DNA from: Escherichia coli
Lineage (GTDB): Bacteria > Pseudomonadota > Gammaproteobacteria > Enterobacterales > Enterobacteriaceae
DNA: 64,000 nucleotides
Strand: one strand, 5' to 3'
Assembly: GCF_048403405.1 (NCBI RefSeq)
Contig: NZ_CP183129.1
A program made the position numbers. This document shows, in pieces, positions 57,701 to 63,700 of this stretch. Numbering within the stretch: the first letter of the stretch is position 1; every line of letters begins with the position of its first letter.

Positions 57701-60700
57701 GTTTATAGTCAGAAAGGAGATATTGAGGAATAAGATAAAAATGAAAGTCTGTTTAATTATTTTGTTTATTAATTTTGCTTTTTGTTTTCCGTTAATGGCG
57801 AAGACGTTATTTTTAGGTGATTCATTAACGGCTGTTTATGAAATGTCAGCAAAATATGTTTTGGATGAAAAAATAAAAACAGAATATGTTTCCGGTTCGG
57901 GGTTAATAAATAAAAGTAAAAAAGATTGGATCGCTTTCGTGAATAATTTCGATTTGCGGGAGTTTGATAATGTGATTATTAGTCTCGGAACAAATGATTT
58001 TGTTCAATATGGTTCGGATGAATGGCTGAAATATTACAGTCTGGTATTTCAATTCATTGCTGAAATTCAAAGTGAAAATCCGTTAGCGACAATTGTCTGG
58101 ATATCTCCACCACATTTAAAAAATCCGGAACATGAACGTTATTTAATACATACCCGGCATATAATTAAACACAGTGCGATGTTATTAAATATTCATTATC
58201 TGGATATTAATCAGCCTCATATATTAGGAACGCAATGGCAATCTGTTATTCATAATGAAACTGTACGAACTGATGATGGAATACATATTACCCGTAAAGG
58301 GGGAGTACGGGTGATCAGAGAAGTGGTAAAAATCCTGAATGGGCAGGATTGACAAAGATAAAAAAACGGCTAAAAATGAATCTGCTTATCTCGTTGCGTA
58401 ATGCAACTTGCCAATGCTTCGGTTGTCTGAGAGAAGCGCCTACGGGTGACAACAATGCCAATGTTCCGGCAATCTGAGAGGAACGCCTACGGGTGATTGC
58501 CACTGCCAATCCTCGGGTCATCTGAGACGGGAGCCTACGGGCGATGACAGAACTCCGTTCGTCCTTGAAATCGACGGAGGGTGATAACAGAATAGCGTTA
58601 TCATCAGGATTATTTTTACGCAACGCTTCATATAACCTGCCCGCTGACGGGGAAATCACCCGTCATCAGGGAATTTCTCCGTTTTTTCAGGAGAAATTCA
58701 ATGAAGGTATCTACATTTCCGGAATCGTCTTTTTTTGACGATCTGCACTCTCTCACGCAACTGCATCACCTCTCAGGTGAGCTCGACATGGTTCTTGCTT
58801 TTGTCCGTCTGGATATTGGCGAGCACCCGGACGAAGATAATTTTCCGCCAAACTTCTGGATAATCAGTGCCGTTGCAGAGCAACTGGGCGCGTTATCTGT
58901 GGAGGCTGATTTTACCCGTCCACATCTTGAGAAAATGGTCCGCGCTGTCTGGAAAGCGGCTGAGCAAACGCCTTATGCGTCTGACTTTCGCCGTATCTAC
59001 AACGATGCGATCAAAAATGCACAGTTTGAAGATCCGGTTGAAGCGCTGATGTTTGGTGCTTAACGGCGGACATTCACTGATTTTATGACCCATACGGGAA
59101 AACATCCCGTGAGGGCTGTATTCCCTTATCTGAGGATAGCCCTTATGACTCTTTTTACATTGAATTATGGTGTTGCCCACGTAATGTCTGGTATTGCCAG
59201 TTATTTATTTCCGCATTCCCGTGTTTCTCAGCAACTGAAGGCCGTTGCTAATGATGCCCGGATGCTGAAAATCACCGCAGAAGAACTGGAGGTGATACGT
59301 TTGGACGAAAAACGGATGTATCAGAGCGGAGATTACAGAGAACTGCCGTTTATTGAGCTTGATTTGTATACAACGGCATTTCGTTTTGGCGCCCTGATTT
59401 ACTATGGACTCGCAAACCGGTGCCCCCGCATTTTTGCTTCACCGGCTGACAGTCATCGCTGAGCGGCTCGATCCGGAAATCTGGAATGAAGCCTGGCGCT
59501 GGGGTTACCGCTGCTGCCTGCAACACGAAAATGAAAAGCATGTAACCGACTGATTTAACGGACTCACAGGTGTCAGTCAGCTACCCTGAAATGGGGCTGC
59601 TTCCATTTACTGATCAGGTTTGATAACCATGATTTATGGCATTACCCGCGGACTGTTCTTTGTGGCCGATCACGTCTGTCGCTATTCCCGGAGTTGGGAA
59701 TGGCTGATGTGGCTGGTTGAGGAAGCCCGGACACTGCGAAATGTTGAGGCTGATTTGAAACTGGCTGAAAGGTATGCCGGTGAGCAAAACCGCCCTCATT
59801 CCATTTCGCTGATGAAGTGTACGCTTTATGATGCCGGATTTGCTTACGGCAGATTATTACTGTGGCGTGCGGATGGTCTGATGAGACCCTGGCCGGCATG
59901 TCTGCTTCGCCGTTTACCGGATATCGGTCAGCGGATTGATGCAGTGATCTGGCAGAAAGGCTGTGAAGCCGGCTTGGATGAGACCGTCAGTGAATGGATG
60001 GCAATGGAGATGGCTGATGAATACCTTGTCGGTATCGAACTGAGCGACTGATTTGCCGGCATTCATTCTTTTTTTACTTACCTACCCGACGGGGAAACTC
60101 CCCGTCAGGTGGACGTTTCTCCGTCTTTTTTTACCGGAGAAACACACATGTCTGTTTTACTGCCAGAAAACAAACCGTTTTCATTTCTGAGTCTGATCAT
60201 GCAACGGCTGTACCGTTTTTATGACCGTATACCGTTTGTTTCGTCAGGGATACCCGGTGAATTACCGTGGATAAGTAACCGAACCGGCCGGCGCGCTTAC
60301 CGTGCGACGGTGGTGAAAGTGAATCCCCGGCAGTTCAGGATCCGCATTACTGTACGTCTGGGCGCGCATTCGAAAGAATACCGCTTTCATTCGTTGATAA
60401 CCTCGCTGGACAGCAGGACATTTTGTTCCATAAAAGCGGCCTCCCGTGCCGGATTTGCACTGACATACCAGCTGGCACAGGTGCGTTATGCCTGGTGTCG
60501 CTGATTTGTTGTACTGATAGCACCATTGACTTTTTGTTATGACCCCGCCCGGCGGATTGATTTCCGTCAGGAGATGAATCCGCCATTTTTTTAATCAGAA
60601 TGAGGATTTATCACATGGGATATACACATTATTTTACACAAAAACAAAGCGTTGACCCCCTGATGTGGCAGAACTTCCGTGAACATCTGGACAAGCTCTA

Positions 60701-63700
60701 TCACCACTATCTGGCCAATCCCATATCCGCAGAGCAGATTTGCGGCGGATACCCAGATAAACCTATTGTGTTGTGTGATGGCCTGGAGGAAAAACGGCTG
60801 AATGATGGCTCATTATTCACCGACGACGGTGAGGCGCTTTGTTTTAACGGTAATGCGGCTGATGACATGAATCATGAGACGTTTATTGTTCAGCGCGAAA
60901 TCCCCGTAGAGGACTACTGGGATTTCTGCAAGACAGCATACAAACCCTATGACGTGTTTGTAGTCGCGGCATTACTGTTGTTGTACAACCTGTGCCCGGG
61001 ATATTTTTCGGTCTCTTCTGACGGGGATATCCGGGACTGGCAGCCGGTGCTGGACTATGTCAGTCAGGTATTTCCTTATCTTATCCTGACGTTACCGGAA
61101 GGGATAGGTTTACCGGAGGCAGGATAATGGCCAGAGCCTGTACGATACGGGAACTGATAGCGGATTTATCCCGCTGCAATCCGGAGGCATTCGTCTTGTG
61201 TGAGATGTGGTTCCCCGATGATGTTACCTATGTTGATGAAACGGCTTGTCCGGCAGAGACACGGGCAACATTAACGCATGTTGCACATCATTTTGATGCG
61301 GAGCTGGGGATCAACTGGGACACGCTGGCGTGTGCGTTATCGTGTGTCAGAGATGCTGAGCAGAAGGGACTCGATATTTACTTTTATGCCAGTGAAAAGC
61401 GTGGTACAGACAAAAGCCGGATACCCGCCTCACGTTACGCAGAAGCGGACAGCGACGGCGATATTGAAGTCGGGTATTTCCGTAAGGTTAATGCGCTGTT
61501 TAAGTGGGTGCATGACCATATCGGGGCTTTTGAGAACTGTGAAAAGGTGCTGGTGACAGAGGCCCATCTGCGGGCTTTACAGCAGGACTTGCAGGCACTG
61601 ACACCGGAAAACTGTCAGACACGGTTCCCGACCACTGAGGGCTTTTTCTTTGGTTCAACGGCTTATGATGAGGCGTACTGGGCTGATGTGGAAGGCGTCA
61701 GACGCTGGCTGTCAGAGATAACGGAGACGTTTGACTTTGACGCAGAGTCACTGTTTTTTGTGGCCTGGTGGTAATCAGGTAAGGTGTTTCCCCGGGAAGC
61801 ACTGAACACATTTTAATCAGTGTTTCCACTGGAAACGCCGGTTGAAAATTAACCATATTGTTTTTTCACCTGATGGTGTATCTCACCGTCAGGACGGGAT
61901 ACACCTTTTTTATTGAGGGTATTCCGATGAAAAAATCTGACCGTAAACGCCGTCCGGCAGCGGATAAGCCGGTTCGCGATATTTATCAGGAAGTGACTGA
62001 CCGTATTGTGGCCGCGCTGGAAAAAGGCACCCGTCCGTGGAAACGACCATGGCGGCCGTCGGAAGGGACAGGCACCGGTTTTCCGGTGAACGCCCTGACC
62101 GGTCATTCCTACCAGGGGATAAATGTGCTGCTGTTATGGTTGTCGGCGGCGGAGCAGGGCTTTGGTTACGATATCTGGCTGACTTACCGTCAGGCACAGC
62201 AACTGGGTGGCCATGTCCGTAAAGGCGAAATGGCGACGAATACTGTGATATTCAAACCGGTGAAGGTGCCGGCAAAAGACCGTCACGGTGAGCTGCTGCG
62301 GGATGAACACGGTGAGGTGGTGATGACGGAGGTGCCGATGATAAAGGCGAATCCGTTATTTAACATAGCCCAGTGTGATGACCTGCCGGCGCATTTTTAC
62401 GAAAACCGGCGACTACCCGGAGAGGAGACAGCAGGGATAACCCTGCCGGCCACGCACCGGGTGCTGGATATCCTGAATGCCAGCGGCGTGAAGGTGACCA
62501 GTGCGGCGCAGAACCGGGCGTATTACAGTCCGTCACAGGACCGGATTGTGATGCCGCTGTCGTCACAGTTTGACCGGAATGCCGATTACCAGGCCACCTT
62601 ACTGCATGAGTTGGTGCACAGTACCGGTCATCCGTCCAGGCTGGCCCGTGAAGGCATCACCTCATCGTCCCTGAAGTTTGGTGACCCGCTGTACAGTTTT
62701 GAGGAGCTGGTTGCGGAAATGGGCAGCGCTTTTCTTTGTGCGCAGTTAAGCGTCGAGGGAGAAGTGAACCATGAAAGCTATCTTGACAGCTGGCTGCGGG
62801 TACTGAAATCGGACAAAAAAGCGTTGTTCCGGGCCGCCGGGCAGGCCCGCCAGGCCTGTGAGTTTTTACTGAATGTGGCCGCATCCCGACAGGCCGCGTA
62901 GGAGACTGCGATGAACAAAATGACCATTATCCGCTTTCAGTTACTGGTACATCAGTTACTGCAAGTGCATTACGGCATTACGCTGAGTGATACCGGATTG
63001 TCCGATGATGCTGAGGTGTCCCGGATGATTGAACTCGGGATATCGCCGGTATCGGTGGTCAACCGTCTGGTGGATAAGTACCACCTGGATAAACTGAATG
63101 CATCCTGTTATCTGCCGGCATCCCCGTATGTCAGTGACAGCGATGCCTTACTTGCACAGGCTCAGCTGAGCGGTGCCATTAACCCGGATGTCATGCCGGA
63201 TAATCCTTAACGATTAACGACTGACATCTTTCCCGTGAGGGCTTGTTCCTCACGGGATAAGCCCTCTTTTTTATTCTGAAAAGAGGACATCATCATGCCA
63301 AACTGGTGCTCGAACCGACTTGACATCACCTTACACAACGCGGCGGATATGCCGGCTCTTAAACACTGGATATATGCGGATGATGGGATACCCGCCTGGC
63401 AGACGGCGATAGCACAAAGTCTGCATTTGTTGCTGGCCGGCTGCGCGGGGATACTGAAACCGGTCAGACCGCTGTCTTTTCCGCCGTTACCGGAACTGAC
63501 TTCATACGGTGCAACCGGGCCTGTTTCCCCGGGAAACACGGCTTTCACGCACTGGGTTGACCTGCTGATGACTGCACCGGATTTGACACCGTCATGTTGT
63601 CAGCAAATCCATCAGTGGTATCAGATGTGGTTATCTGAAGGCGGGGCGTACCATTCCTGGGACTCGCTGACGGCGACGCAGAAAGCGAGACTGTCCCCGT

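What the first reader, a model, noticed from the sequence alone, without database searches (positions are those of the whole stretch)
58644..63294. Recurring two-hairpin 5' leader that buries the ribosome-binding site of three unrelated small genes
Upstream of the genes starting at 58701, 60148 and 63295 the same design recurs: a GC-rich hairpin (GACGGGG...CCCGTC or CCCGTGAGG...CCTCACGGG), then a second hairpin whose 5' arm is an anti-SD (TTTCTCC or CCTCTTTT), whose loop is U-rich, and whose 3' arm contains the SD (GGAGAAA or AAAAGAGG) 7-8 nt before ATG. Leaders 1 and 2 are alignable in sequence; leader 3 shares only the architecture. This suggests translationally silent mRNAs needing a trigger (temperature, an RNA-binding activator, a helicase, or expression from ssDNA on entry).
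Basis: seen in the sequence. Interest (0 to 1): 0.5.

Follow-up and report, generated by a model that had tools for sequence, protein, structure and literature searches.

The report
Recurring ribosome-site-hiding leaders in a conjugative element
Most genes in the anti-restriction (ArdC) region of this integrative conjugative element are preceded by a conserved ~65-nt leader that can fold either into two hairpins that hide the ribosome-binding site or into one terminator-like hairpin that frees it; no such RNA family was found in Rfam 15 or in the literature searched.

Summary
The window is an ICEPm1-like ICE. At least five genes, starting at 58701, 60148, 60615, 61927 (ArdC) and 63295, carry a leader in which a GC-rich hairpin A is followed by hairpin C that pairs the Shine-Dalgarno sequence. 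These leaders are far more structured than 60 control genes.

A covariance model built from leaders 1 and 2 finds about 110 further plus-strand copies. They occur in all 45 gamma-proteobacterial ArdC loci examined and in three related plasmids, and nearly all end at start codons. None was found in control DNA. Both helices covary strongly.

Segment 1 (A's 5' arm) also pairs with segment 3 (C's 5' arm, the anti-SD), making hairpin B. In the window B is always followed by T5-T7, like an intrinsic terminator, and it excludes both A and C.

Best reading: an RNA-level four-segment attenuator that keeps each cistron off, either terminated (B) or read through but untranslatable (A+C). The trigger is unknown. 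Temperature and a Frpo-type ssDNA promoter are not supported. The operon begins with a conserved sigma-70-like promoter followed by STAXI RNA. No match was found in Rfam 15.

The parts
58349..58377 (+). Sigma-70-like promoter (TTGACA-17-AAAAAT) just upstream of the STAXI copy that heads the leader-bearing gene row
   Evidence: Found by the consensus scan. A TTGAC[A/G]-17-TAnnAT match lies 11-15 nt upstream of 9 of the 10 STAXI copies in Proteus/E. coli, Xenorhabdus (two species), Chimaeribacter and an Enterobacterales MAG; the tenth, L009:4184, has only a weak -35 (TGGAAT). The spacers differ between copies. Inferred promoter, not tested.
58392..58551 (+). STAXI RNA (RF01728), 5' part of the presumed operon transcript. 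A second copy lies at 55958-56115.
   Evidence: Rfam hits of 123.3 and 112.1 bits against a gathering score of 40.5. In relatives and plasmids a STAXI copy ends 5-90 nt before the first leader.
58646..58700 (+). Leader 1. Seg1 58646-56, seg2 58659-64, seg3 58672-82, T-run 58682-87, seg4 (SD) 58690-98. A = 1:2, B = 1:3, C = 3:4. ATG at 58701.
   Evidence: MFE z-score -4.7. Model R1 83 bits, R2 65.9 bits. Isolated hairpins: A -10.1, B -16.6, C -9.4 kcal/mol; B is followed by TTTTT.
59094..59144 (+). Partial leader before the gene at 59145. ACGGG/CCCGT hairpin (59094-98 / 59106-10), then GAGGGCT..AGCCCTT enclosing CCTT/GAGG (SD 59132-36). No T-run and no helix B.
   Evidence: Read from the sequence. 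MFE z-score is only -2.0. Not hit by the models.
60082..60147 (+). Leader 2. Seg1 60088-98, seg2 60099-106, seg3 60115-25, T7 60126-32, seg4 (SD) 60135-43. An outer helix CTACC/GGTGG encloses A. ATG at 60148.
   Evidence: MFE z-score -5.8. R1 84.7 bits, R2 70.9 bits. A -13.4 (-21.5 with the outer helix), B -23.8, C -11.0 kcal/mol.
60548..60614 (+). Leader before the gene at 60615. A 60551-56 / 60563-68 (weak). B 60551-64 / 60571-84, followed by A+T7 at 60585-92. C 60573-81 / 60604-12 with SD GAGGA 60602-06.
   Evidence: Found by the detector. R1 14.6 bits, E=1. A -7.9, B -22.9, C -12.5 kcal/mol.
61858..61926 (+). ArdC leader. A 61869-78 / 61884-93. B 61875-82 / 61898-905, then T6 61906-11. C 61896-907 / 61915-25 (SD GAGGG). 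The 5' GTTTTTTCA can also pair with the start-codon region TGAAAAAAT.
   Evidence: MFE z-score -6.6. R1 20.4 bits, E=0.03. A -16.2, B -15.9, C -11.8 kcal/mol. Compensatory changes against the Xenorhabdus ArdC leader occur in both A and B.
63229..63294 (+). Leader 3, before DUF1281. A 63232-40 / 63248-56. B 63237-49 / 63254-66 (13 bp, loop TCAC), then T6 63267-72. C 63263-71 / 63278-86 (SD).
   Evidence: MFE z-score -4.4. B is the top terminator-like site in the scan. A -17.1, B -21.8, C -9.4 kcal/mol. Not hit by R1 or R2, so it shares the architecture only.

Best explanation
Each unit is a cis-acting RNA leader, either a 5' UTR or an intercistronic UTR, built from four segments. Segment 4 contains the SD. 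Segment 3 is the anti-SD. Segment 1 is an SD-like copy of segment 4. Segment 2 is an anti-SD-like copy of segment 3.

Two mutually exclusive folds exist. In fold I, A (1:2) and C (3:4) form together, no terminator hairpin forms, and the SD is buried. In fold II, B (1:3, extended by pairing of seg2 with the linker) forms. In ICEPm1, Xenorhabdus, Chimaeribacter and Pasteurellaceae copies B is followed by a U-run, so it looks like an intrinsic terminator, and the SD is left free.

I infer that the unit is a two-level fail-safe on every cistron of the ArdC/anti-restriction operon. With ordinary RNA polymerase, the transcript ends if B folds. If A wins and polymerase reads through, the freed anti-SD immediately locks the next gene's ribosome site. 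Productive expression then needs something extra. That could be a polymerase that reads through a folded B (processive antitermination, perhaps set up at the conserved promoter-STAXI or radC-motif 5' leader), or a factor that holds segment 2 or segment 3.

What is shown: the structures, their covariation, their register to start codons, and their distribution. What is inferred: that C represses translation, that B terminates transcription, and the trigger.
For: 1. Structure beyond chance. MFE z-scores are -4.4 to -6.6. In 4 of 7 region genes against 1 of 60 controls, both the fold stability and the SD-unpairing cost are extreme.

2. A family. Model R1, built only from L1 and L2 and their E. 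coli variants, gives 90 hits in 1.05 Mb, about 79 of them on the plus strand; the minus-strand hits are echoes at the same sites. Model R2 gives 120 hits, 110 on the plus strand, up to 6 per locus, in all 45 gamma-proteobacterial ArdC loci. There are none in E. coli chromosomal controls, the T4SS/NRPS part of the ICE, or alpha- and beta-proteobacterial ArdC loci.

3. Register. 82 of 98 hits end within 3 nt of independently called start codons. In three plasmids not used for model building, 13 of 16 plus-strand hits end at PGAP-annotated starts, including ArdC, DUF1281, DUF3085 and an orphan N6 methylase.

4. Covariation of A and C. 94.5% and 89.1% of cells are paired against 77.6% and 70.1% in shuffles, with 0 of 500 shuffles as high. 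14 of 17 and 17 of 17 pairs carry double changes. Slid controls give 46-65%. RNAalifold agrees.

5. Helix B.
- In the window every B is followed by T5-T7. B energies are -15.9 to -23.8 kcal/mol against -7.9 to -17.1 for A.
- On 91 leaders selected only by the A+C model, native seg1:seg3 duplexes average -9.4 against -6.8 kcal/mol when partners are swapped (p=3e-10). The 2:4, 1:4 and 2:3 controls show nothing.
- B strength correlates with U content after seg3 (rho=-0.36, p=5e-4).
- The ArdC leader shows compensatory changes in B between Proteus/E. coli and Xenorhabdus: GGTGTATC/GATACACC against GGTGTACT/AGTACACC.

6. Bistability. On transcripts truncated after seg3, B is more stable than A (mean -20.7 against -17.0 kcal/mol). 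Full-length, A+C wins (-30.4 against -21.0). Pseudoknot-free barriers are 9-24 kcal/mol.

7. Transcript context. A conserved sigma-70-like promoter precedes STAXI, and STAXI is followed by the first leader.
Against: - There are no expression, termination or probing data; everything is computational.
- A fixed-column count for B on the A+C-fitted alignment does not beat slid controls: 70.9% against 74% at slides of -1 and -2. Support for B therefore rests on the energy swap test and on individual cases.
- B and the U-run are absent in the Salmonella/Citrobacter group, and the U-run is absent in Pseudomonas. The terminator layer is therefore not universal.
- The helices are almost all Watson-Crick. 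The plus strand and its reverse complement fold equally well, and the G-U versus A-C asymmetry is inconclusive (109 against 109 on A6). Assigning function to the RNA strand rests on the SD/ATG register and the polarity of the U-run.
- Neither fold alone gives an obvious ON state, and no antiterminator, ops site or CsrA homologue was found in the sequence held.
- If A forms first and the computed barriers are realistic, B may rarely form.
Confidence: 0.45

Rival explanations
1. Static tuning and insulation with no switch. The hairpins would be intercistronic mRNA stabilisers or processing signals plus partial terminators. C would be a constitutive damper that sets low, fixed translation of each cistron. 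The complementarity behind B would only reflect the terminator sharing sequence with the anti-SD.
For: - Canonical-looking terminators lie between cistrons: 13-15 bp stems followed by T6-T7 at 60551-92 and 63237-72.
- The 5' flank, T-rich followed by CACCC, is conserved and could be a processing site that leaves hairpin A at a new 5' end.
- No sensor was found.
Against: - There is no room for a promoter between the T-run and the SD, so downstream genes need read-through.
- A overlaps B systematically and instance by instance. A plain terminator plus damper does not need that.
- Consistent energy ordering: B is more stable than A alone in 4 of the 5 window leaders and on average on truncated transcripts, while A+C is more stable than B in full-length transcripts on average and in 4 of the 5 window leaders. 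This looks designed.
Confidence: 0.22
2. A trans-acting regulator opens the leaders. This could be a host or ICE RNA-binding protein (CsrA-, Hfq- or ProQ-like, or one of the small unknown ICE proteins) or an RNA such as STAXI. It would bind seg2, seg3 or the GGA-containing seg1 and seg4. The terminator-like look of B would be secondary.
For: - Conserved GGGAA (seg1) and GGAGAA (seg4) motifs lie about 45 nt apart, with U- or pyrimidine-rich loops.
- STAXI or the radC motif always lies upstream.
- Mobile elements often carry CsrA paralogues (PMC7366521).
Against: - No CsrA homologue was found in the window or in any held locus.
- The GGA motifs lie in stems, not loops.
- The variable parts of seg3 differ between leaders of one ICE, so a single antisense RNA cannot pair with all of them.
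- The conserved cores are explained by the chain SD -> anti-SD -> anti-anti-SD without invoking a protein site.
Confidence: 0.15
3. Function as single-stranded DNA on the transferred strand. The hairpins would act as priming (ssi/sso-like) sites, ssDNA promoters or SSB-exclusion structures during entry into the recipient.
For: - The helices are nearly all Watson-Crick and fold equally well on both strands.
- The region has leading-region-like content and orientation: ArdC, an orphan methylase, and all genes pointing towards traI.
- STAXI was once suggested to be ssDNA (PMC2864571).
Against: - The 3' arm of C always contains the SD at 6-8 nt from the start codon. A DNA signal has no reason to keep that register.
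- The T-run has a fixed polarity.
- The hairpins have 8-15 bp stems, too short to rebuild -35 and -10 boxes. Published ssDNA promoters are large hairpins below -75 kcal/mol, and nothing of that size is present.
- A normal double-stranded promoter is conserved upstream.
Confidence: 0.08
4. RNA thermometers of the fourU type. The SD would be paired to a U-rich arm that melts at host temperature.
For: - The layout has two hairpins.
- L3 pairs AAAAGAGG with CCTCTTTT, and the loops are U-rich.
Against: - The stems are perfect, 8-11 bp, at -9 to -14 kcal/mol.
- The predicted probability that the SD is unpaired stays below 2% from 25 to 50 C for L1, L2 and the ArdC leader, and is flat for L3.
- The motif is conserved in soil Pseudomonas and in insect-associated Xenorhabdus.
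Confidence: 0.03

Closest known systems
Translational attenuation leaders of ermC/cat type
   Same: Four consecutive segments. The default fold is 1:2 plus 3:4, with the SD of the regulated gene inside 3:4. An alternative pairing frees segment 4.
   Different: In ermC the alternative is 2:3 and it is triggered by a ribosome stalled on a leader peptide that has its own SD. Here the alternative is 1:3, it is followed by a U-run, and the leaders contain no leader ORF.
Reiterated transcription attenuators inside an operon (B. subtilis pyr operon with PyrR; trp operon with TRAP, which also drives SD sequestration of trpE). From my own knowledge.
   Same: Terminator and antiterminator alternatives are repeated in intercistronic regions. 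One system acts on both transcription and translation.
   Different: Those systems have a defined RNA-binding protein site, and both layers switch in the same direction. Here no binding site is identified, and the two folds have opposite effects on read-through and on SD access.
Fold-back inhibition that protects IS10/Tn10 transposase from outside transcription. From my own knowledge.
   Same: Read-through transcripts carry an upstream complement of the ribosome-binding region and are translationally silent.
   Different: IS10 has an internal promoter, so its own transcript lacks the inhibitory arm. No promoter was found between seg3 and the SD here.
Attenuation plus processive antitermination in conjugation operons of Gram-positive elements: the pLS20 zipper-type attenuator with conAn (PMC13401043) and Tn916 (PMC11658703)
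   Same: A conjugative-element operon is gated by alternative terminator and antiterminator RNA folds and by terminators that need antitermination.
   Different: Those have a single long 5' leader in Firmicutes, with no SD-sequestering arm and no repetition before each cistron. They are unrelated in sequence and structure.
fourU/ROSE RNA thermometers
   Same: A short two-hairpin 5' UTR in which the second hairpin pairs the SD with a pyrimidine-rich arm.
   Different: Thermometers have weak, mismatched stems. These stems are perfect and are predicted to stay closed up to 50 C.
STAXI (RF01728) and radC (RF01754) RNA motifs of MPF_G ICEs
   Same: They occur in the same elements and the same operon, immediately upstream of the first leader. 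Together they make up 80% of RNA genes in MPF_G ICEs (PMC5587801).
   Different: They are separate, larger motifs of unknown function. The leaders are not part of either model and match no Rfam family.

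Membership tests
Any Rfam 15 family | A covariance-model match at or near the family's gathering score | tested here: not met
   An E-value search (E<=5) of 55500-64000 gives only STAXI, EFASI and chance microRNA-like hits elsewhere. Gathering-score searches of 14 related loci give nothing at leader coordinates.
Intrinsic (Rho-independent) terminator | A GC-rich hairpin immediately followed by a run of U | tested here: met
   B hairpins of -15.9 to -23.8 kcal/mol are followed by T5-T7 at all five window leaders. 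63237-66 is the top hit of the terminator scan. In L1 and L2 the loop or inner part is atypically large.
Intrinsic (Rho-independent) terminator | RNA 3' ends and transcript release at the U-run | not testable with these tools
   Needs Term-seq, 3' RACE or in vitro transcription.
Transcription attenuator / riboswitch-like expression platform | Mutually exclusive terminator and antiterminator helices | tested here: met
   A and B share seg1, and B and C share seg3. All three are maintained instance by instance.
Transcription attenuator / riboswitch-like expression platform | A sensor: leader peptide, ligand aptamer, or protein- or tRNA-binding site | tested here: not met
   The ~65 nt contain no leader ORF and no conserved unpaired aptamer-like region. 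The conserved cores are explained by pairing to the SD.
ermC-type translational attenuation | A short leader ORF with its own SD overlapping segment 1 | tested here: not met
   There is no start codon with an SD upstream of or inside seg1 in L1, L2, L3 or the ArdC leader.
fourU/ROSE RNA thermometer | An SD helix with mismatches or weak pairs that melts between about 30 and 42 C | tested here: not met
   C is 8-11 perfect pairs at -9.4 to -12.5 kcal/mol. The SD unpaired probability stays below 2% from 25 to 50 C. In silico only.
ssDNA promoter (Frpo/ssi class 1-3) | A large imperfect hairpin on the transferred strand that rebuilds -35 and -10 boxes (published threshold below -75 kcal/mol) | tested here: not met
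   The stems are 8-15 bp. The strongest 200-nt minus-strand DNA fold in 30-64 kb is -50 kcal/mol and lies in coding sequence. Criteria are from PMC12672017 and 10.1101/2025.04.03.647016.
Integron attC sites (structured motif recurring in consecutive intergenic regions) | R''/R' core sites (RYYYAAC ... GTTRRRY) flanking an imperfect hairpin at the 3' end of each cassette, plus an integron integrase | tested here: not met
   There is no GTTRRRY at the 3' side. The units are locked to the downstream start codon, not to the upstream gene end. The precedent for recurrence is discussed in PMC5737381.
Leading region of a conjugative element | First DNA to enter the recipient, with genes templated by the transferred strand | not testable with these tools
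   The picture is consistent: ArdC, an orphan methylase in pSGI4, and all genes pointing towards traI. But oriT and the transferred strand are unmapped for this family's ICEPm1 branch.

The most novel reading that the evidence does not exclude
The leaders are a new class of cis-regulatory RNA, specific to ICEHin1056/ICEclc/ICEPm1-type (MPF_G) elements. They act as a per-cistron AND-gate. A gene would be translated only from transcripts made by a terminator-resistant polymerase that has passed a folded terminator B, so that the anti-SD stays locked away. The conserved promoter plus STAXI (or the radC motif in Pseudomonas) at the head of the operon would be the cis-acting element that confers that antitermination. 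This would give STAXI and radC, orphan motifs since 2010, a function.
Probability: 0.2. Interest if true: 0.8.

Novelty: new variant of a known kind. Interest (0 to 1): 0.62.

Why it matters
ICEs of this family spread virulence and resistance islands, including ICEPm1, SGI-4, PAPI-1/ICEclc relatives and ICEHin1056 relatives. How their anti-restriction and establishment genes are kept silent in the resident state yet expressed on demand is unknown.

A compact, portable leader repeated before ArdC, DUF1281, orphan methylases and many unknown genes gives a concrete handle that can be mutated. It defines a searchable motif that flags candidate establishment or anti-defence genes. It places the orphan STAXI and radC motifs in a testable operon context. 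Its logic, in which a terminator's 3' arm doubles as the anti-SD of the next gene, is also a neat design for leak-proof polycistronic control.

Tried and rejected
- BLAST of the leaders against 80 ArdC loci finds only ICEPm1 copies. Homology is not detectable by sequence alone, so I moved to structure-based detectors and covariance models.
- A MAFFT alignment of 27 leaders gave no RNAalifold consensus because the helix registers differ. This was solved by seeding the model on L1 and L2 only.
- A fixed-column covariation count for helix B was inconclusive. I replaced it with a partner-swap energy test on leaders selected without reference to B. The first swap test was biased by selection and is not relied on.
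- The strand-of-function tests were both uninformative: plus strand against reverse-complement MFE, and G-U against A-C counts.
- findpath barriers ignore pseudoknotted strand-displacement routes, and the B constraint failed for 5 of 17 leaders, so kinetics remain open.
- Rejected readings:
  - ssDNA promoter.
  - Thermometer.
  - RfaH ops site (2 one-mismatch hits against 2.6 expected, elsewhere in the window).
  - ICE-encoded CsrA.
  - attC-like cassette sites.
  - STAXI acting as an antisense partner of seg2 or seg3. Complementarity is only 5-8 nt and seg3 differs between leaders.
  - Promoters inside the leaders.
  - Ribosome coupling from the upstream stop codon. The distances of about 20-95 nt are too variable.
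- The EDL933 STAXI-like locus is an IS-riddled remnant and was not informative.
- A literature search on the bare word STAXI returned only psychology papers.

Full report
**What and where.** The window matches an ICEPm1-like integrative conjugative element at 99.9-100% identity. Copies were found in E. coli chromosomes at tRNA-Phe, in Proteus mirabilis and in Providencia stuartii. The element has GI/ICEHin1056-type (MPF_G) transfer genes, TaaP and a yersiniabactin-like NRPS/PKS cluster. The finding lies in a row of plus-strand genes running from 58701 through ArdC (61927-62901), a CbtA-family ORF and DUF1281 (63295). Beyond the window end the row continues to a TraI-domain relaxase, a tyrosine recombinase and the attachment site. 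Rfam finds two STAXI copies (55958-56115 and 58392-58551) and one EFASI (56593-56744) just upstream.

**Checking the observation.**
- Each leader's RNA MFE is the two-hairpin fold, with the SD in the 3' arm of the second hairpin. Z-scores are -4.7 (L1), -5.8 (L2) and -4.4 (L3), and no shuffle folded as well.
- I compared the seven genes of this row that have an upstream spacer of at least 45 nt with 60 such genes from the rest of the ICE and from E. coli chromosome, using PGAP start codons.
- The row's leaders are much more structured: median MFE -33.4 against -16.9 kcal/mol, p=5e-4.
- Unpairing the SD costs more: 8.2 against 3.2 kcal/mol, p=1.6e-3.
- Both are extreme in 4 of 7 against 1 of 60 (Fisher p=2e-4).
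- The design is also present before the gene at 60615 and before ArdC (61927), and in weaker form before 59145.

Each leader has four segments. A is seg1:seg2 and C is seg3:seg4, where seg4 carries the SD. Seg1 is also complementary to seg3. The resulting hairpin B, extended by pairing between seg2 and the linker, excludes both A and C. In the window B is always followed directly by T5-T7.

| Leader | A (kcal/mol) | B (kcal/mol) | C (kcal/mol) |
|---|---|---|---|
| L1 | -10.1 | -16.6 | -9.4 |
| L2 | -13.4 | -23.8 | -11.0 |
| 60615 leader | -7.9 | -22.9 | -12.5 |
| ArdC leader | -16.2 | -15.9 | -11.8 |
| L3 | -17.1 | -21.8 | -9.4 |

These are isolated-hairpin energies. B at 63237-66 is the best terminator-like site in the neutral scan. 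On transcripts cut after seg3, B is on average more stable than A (-20.7 against -17.0 kcal/mol). On full-length leaders A+C wins (-30.4 against -21.0). Pseudoknot-free refolding barriers are 9-24 kcal/mol (the B constraint failed for 5 of 17 leaders). The unit is therefore bistable by design: A+C means read-through with the SD masked, and B means a terminator with the SD free.

**Is it a family?**
- Sequence search finds the leaders only in ICEPm1 copies.
- Reading the upstream regions of genes around ArdC homologues from 80 species shows the same architecture with unrelated sequences in Xenorhabdus and Chimaeribacter.
- An energy-based detector that requires A, B plus a T-run, and C finds 20 cases among 476 ArdC-strand genes and none among 304 opposite-strand genes. 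It finds none in 41 control genes.
- Covariance model R1 was built only from L1, L2 and their E. coli variants with the A+C structure. It recovers about 79 plus-strand sites in 1.05 Mb, and the minus-strand hits are echoes at the same sites.
- The second-round model R2 gives 120 hits, 110 of them on the plus strand, and up to six per locus.
- The hits cover all 45 gamma-proteobacterial loci: Enterobacterales, Pasteurellaceae and Pseudomonas.
- There are none in chromosomal controls, the rest of the ICE, or alpha- and beta-proteobacterial ArdC loci.
- 82 of 98 hits end within 3 nt of an independently called start codon.
- As an independent test I fetched three plasmid or circular-ICE relatives: a Citrobacter plasmid, a Pantoea MPF_G plasmid, and Salmonella pSGI4. 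There, 13 of 16 plus-strand hits end at PGAP start codons, including ArdC, DUF1281, DUF3085 and an orphan N6 DNA methylase.
- In the window itself, R2 hits only L1 and L2. R1 also hits the ArdC leader (E=0.03) and the 60615 leader (E=1). L3 is never hit and shares the architecture only.

**Covariation.**
- On 23 strong hits, 94.5% of cells pair against 77.6% in shuffles (0 of 500 shuffles as high). 14 of 17 pairs show double changes, and slid controls give 48-65%.
- On 120 hits the figures are 89.1% against 70.1%, with 17 of 17 pairs.
- RNAalifold independently returns A+C.
- For B, a fixed-column count on this A+C-fitted alignment is not better than slid controls, because the register varies.
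- A partner-swap test on 91 leaders chosen without reference to B does show instance-specific seg1:seg3 complementarity: -9.4 against -6.8 kcal/mol, p=3e-10. A gives -11.7 against -8.1 and C gives -10.4 against -6.2. The 2:4, 1:4 and 2:3 controls show no effect.
- B is stronger where a U-run follows seg3 (rho=-0.36, p=5e-4).
- B and the U-run are missing in the Salmonella/Citrobacter group, and the U-run is missing in Pseudomonas.
- The ArdC leaders of Proteus/E. coli and Xenorhabdus show compensatory changes in both helices. In A: CCTGATGGTG/CACCGTCAGG against CCAGACGGTG/CACCGTCTGG. In B: GGTGTATC/GATACACC against GGTGTACT/AGTACACC.

**RNA or DNA?** The helices are nearly all Watson-Crick. 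The plus strand and its reverse complement fold equally well, and G-U against A-C counts are inconclusive. The case for RNA rests on three points:
- the SD always lies in C's 3' arm, 6-8 nt from the start codon;
- the T-run has a fixed polarity;
- a conserved TTGAC[A/G]-17-TAnnAT promoter lies 11-15 nt upstream of 9 of the 10 STAXI copies across the five genera examined (the copy at L009:4184 has only a weak -35, TGGAAT), so STAXI and the first leader are most simply one 5' UTR.

Published ssDNA promoters are large hairpins that rebuild -35 and -10 boxes. Nothing comparable exists here.

**How it most likely works.**
- Shown: the alternative structures, the selection on them, and their placement.
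- Inferred: C blocks initiation and B terminates transcription.
- With both, an ordinary polymerase gives either a terminated transcript or a read-through transcript whose next cistron is masked. This is a two-level fail-safe repeated before each cistron.
- A productive state needs B folded while polymerase continues, or a factor holding seg2 or seg3.
- Processive antitermination set up at the promoter-STAXI (or radC) leader would fit. It has precedents in other conjugative elements: pLS20 and Tn916.
- No antiterminator, ops site or CsrA homologue was found.
- Thermometer behaviour is not predicted.
- I put about 0.9 on the structures being selected and about 0.75 on C repressing translation. 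I put about 0.5 on B terminating in the ICEPm1 and Pasteurellaceae branches, and about 0.2-0.25 on the antitermination logic.

**Comparison and novelty.** The logic resembles ermC-type translational attenuation, the reiterated pyr and trp attenuators, and IS10 fold-back inhibition. However, the leaders lack a leader peptide, a known protein site and an internal promoter. They match no Rfam 15 family. Searches of the held literature found STAXI and radC described only as orphan motifs of MPF_G ICEs, and found no description of these leaders. I file it as a new variant of a known kind: a candidate new cis-regulatory RNA motif of the attenuator type.

Noticed in passing
window 55916-55944 and 58349-58377; L004, L007, L009, L051 upstream of each STAXI: 9 of the 10 STAXI copies are preceded at 11-15 nt by a TTGAC[A/G]-17-TAnnAT promoter-like site with divergent spacers, across five genera; the tenth, L009:4184, has only a weak -35 (TGGAAT). 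STAXI therefore looks like the 5' leader of two operons rather than a free-standing sRNA or an ssDNA element.
   Followed up: partly
window 55928-56176 vs 58362-58612: A ~250-bp duplication at 96.8% identity carries the promoter-like site, STAXI and two following hairpins: CTCCGT..ACGGAG, and GGTGATAAC..GTTATCATC followed by a T-rich tail.
   Followed up: no
window 56593-56744: An EFASI RNA (RF02957, 78 bits) lies between the first STAXI and an integrase-domain gene followed by an SGNH hydrolase gene. The same order, STAXI-EFASI-integrase-domain gene-STAXI, recurs in Xenorhabdus, Chimaeribacter, Pantoea and Salmonella pSGI4.
   Followed up: partly
window 59064-61800 vs L082 6765-9255, L083 6514-7756, L084 6513-11404: Gene content between leaders differs among otherwise 92-99% identical E. 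coli ICE variants. Genes 59145 and 59629 are replaced by one different gene, and the gene at 61127 by two others, one of which has its own A/B/C leader at L082 8629-8695. This is cassette-like turnover bounded by leaders.
   Followed up: partly
L084 7134-8834 (E. coli CEC15): A group II intron (ltrA) sits on the opposite strand in the spacer just upstream of the L2-type leader.
   Followed up: no
window 61858-61868 and equivalent 5' flanks (L004 5936, L021 5940, L005 833, others): A T-rich run followed by CACC(C) precedes hairpin A and is conserved from Proteus to Pseudomonas. In the ArdC leader GTTTTTTCA can also pair with the start-codon region TGAAAAAAT. It might be a processing site or an outer helix.
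   Followed up: no
window 62911-63210: The ORF annotated as a CbtA-family toxin follows ArdC after 9 nt, without a leader. It matches PHROG 23459 at profile positions directly following those matched by ArdC's C-terminal half, as if it were a detached C-terminal module of a longer ArdC-like protein.
   Followed up: no
window ~1-670 (L085 37783-38704): A second, frameshifted ArdC-family pseudogene lies at the other end of the window, next to IS fragments.
   Followed up: no
L011 7887-8074; L021 5734-5872; L025 5284-5429: In the Salmonella diarizonae relative, isrK and C4 antisense RNA genes lie about 1 kb downstream of ArdC. In the Pseudomonas relatives the radC RNA motif takes the place of STAXI upstream of the ArdC leader.
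   Followed up: no
E. coli genomes: STAXI-like sequence, at 60-80% identity over about 100 nt, is present in 667 of 5426 complete E. coli genomes, including the O157:H7 ter/ure island. There the context is IS-disrupted and no leader was found.
   Followed up: partly
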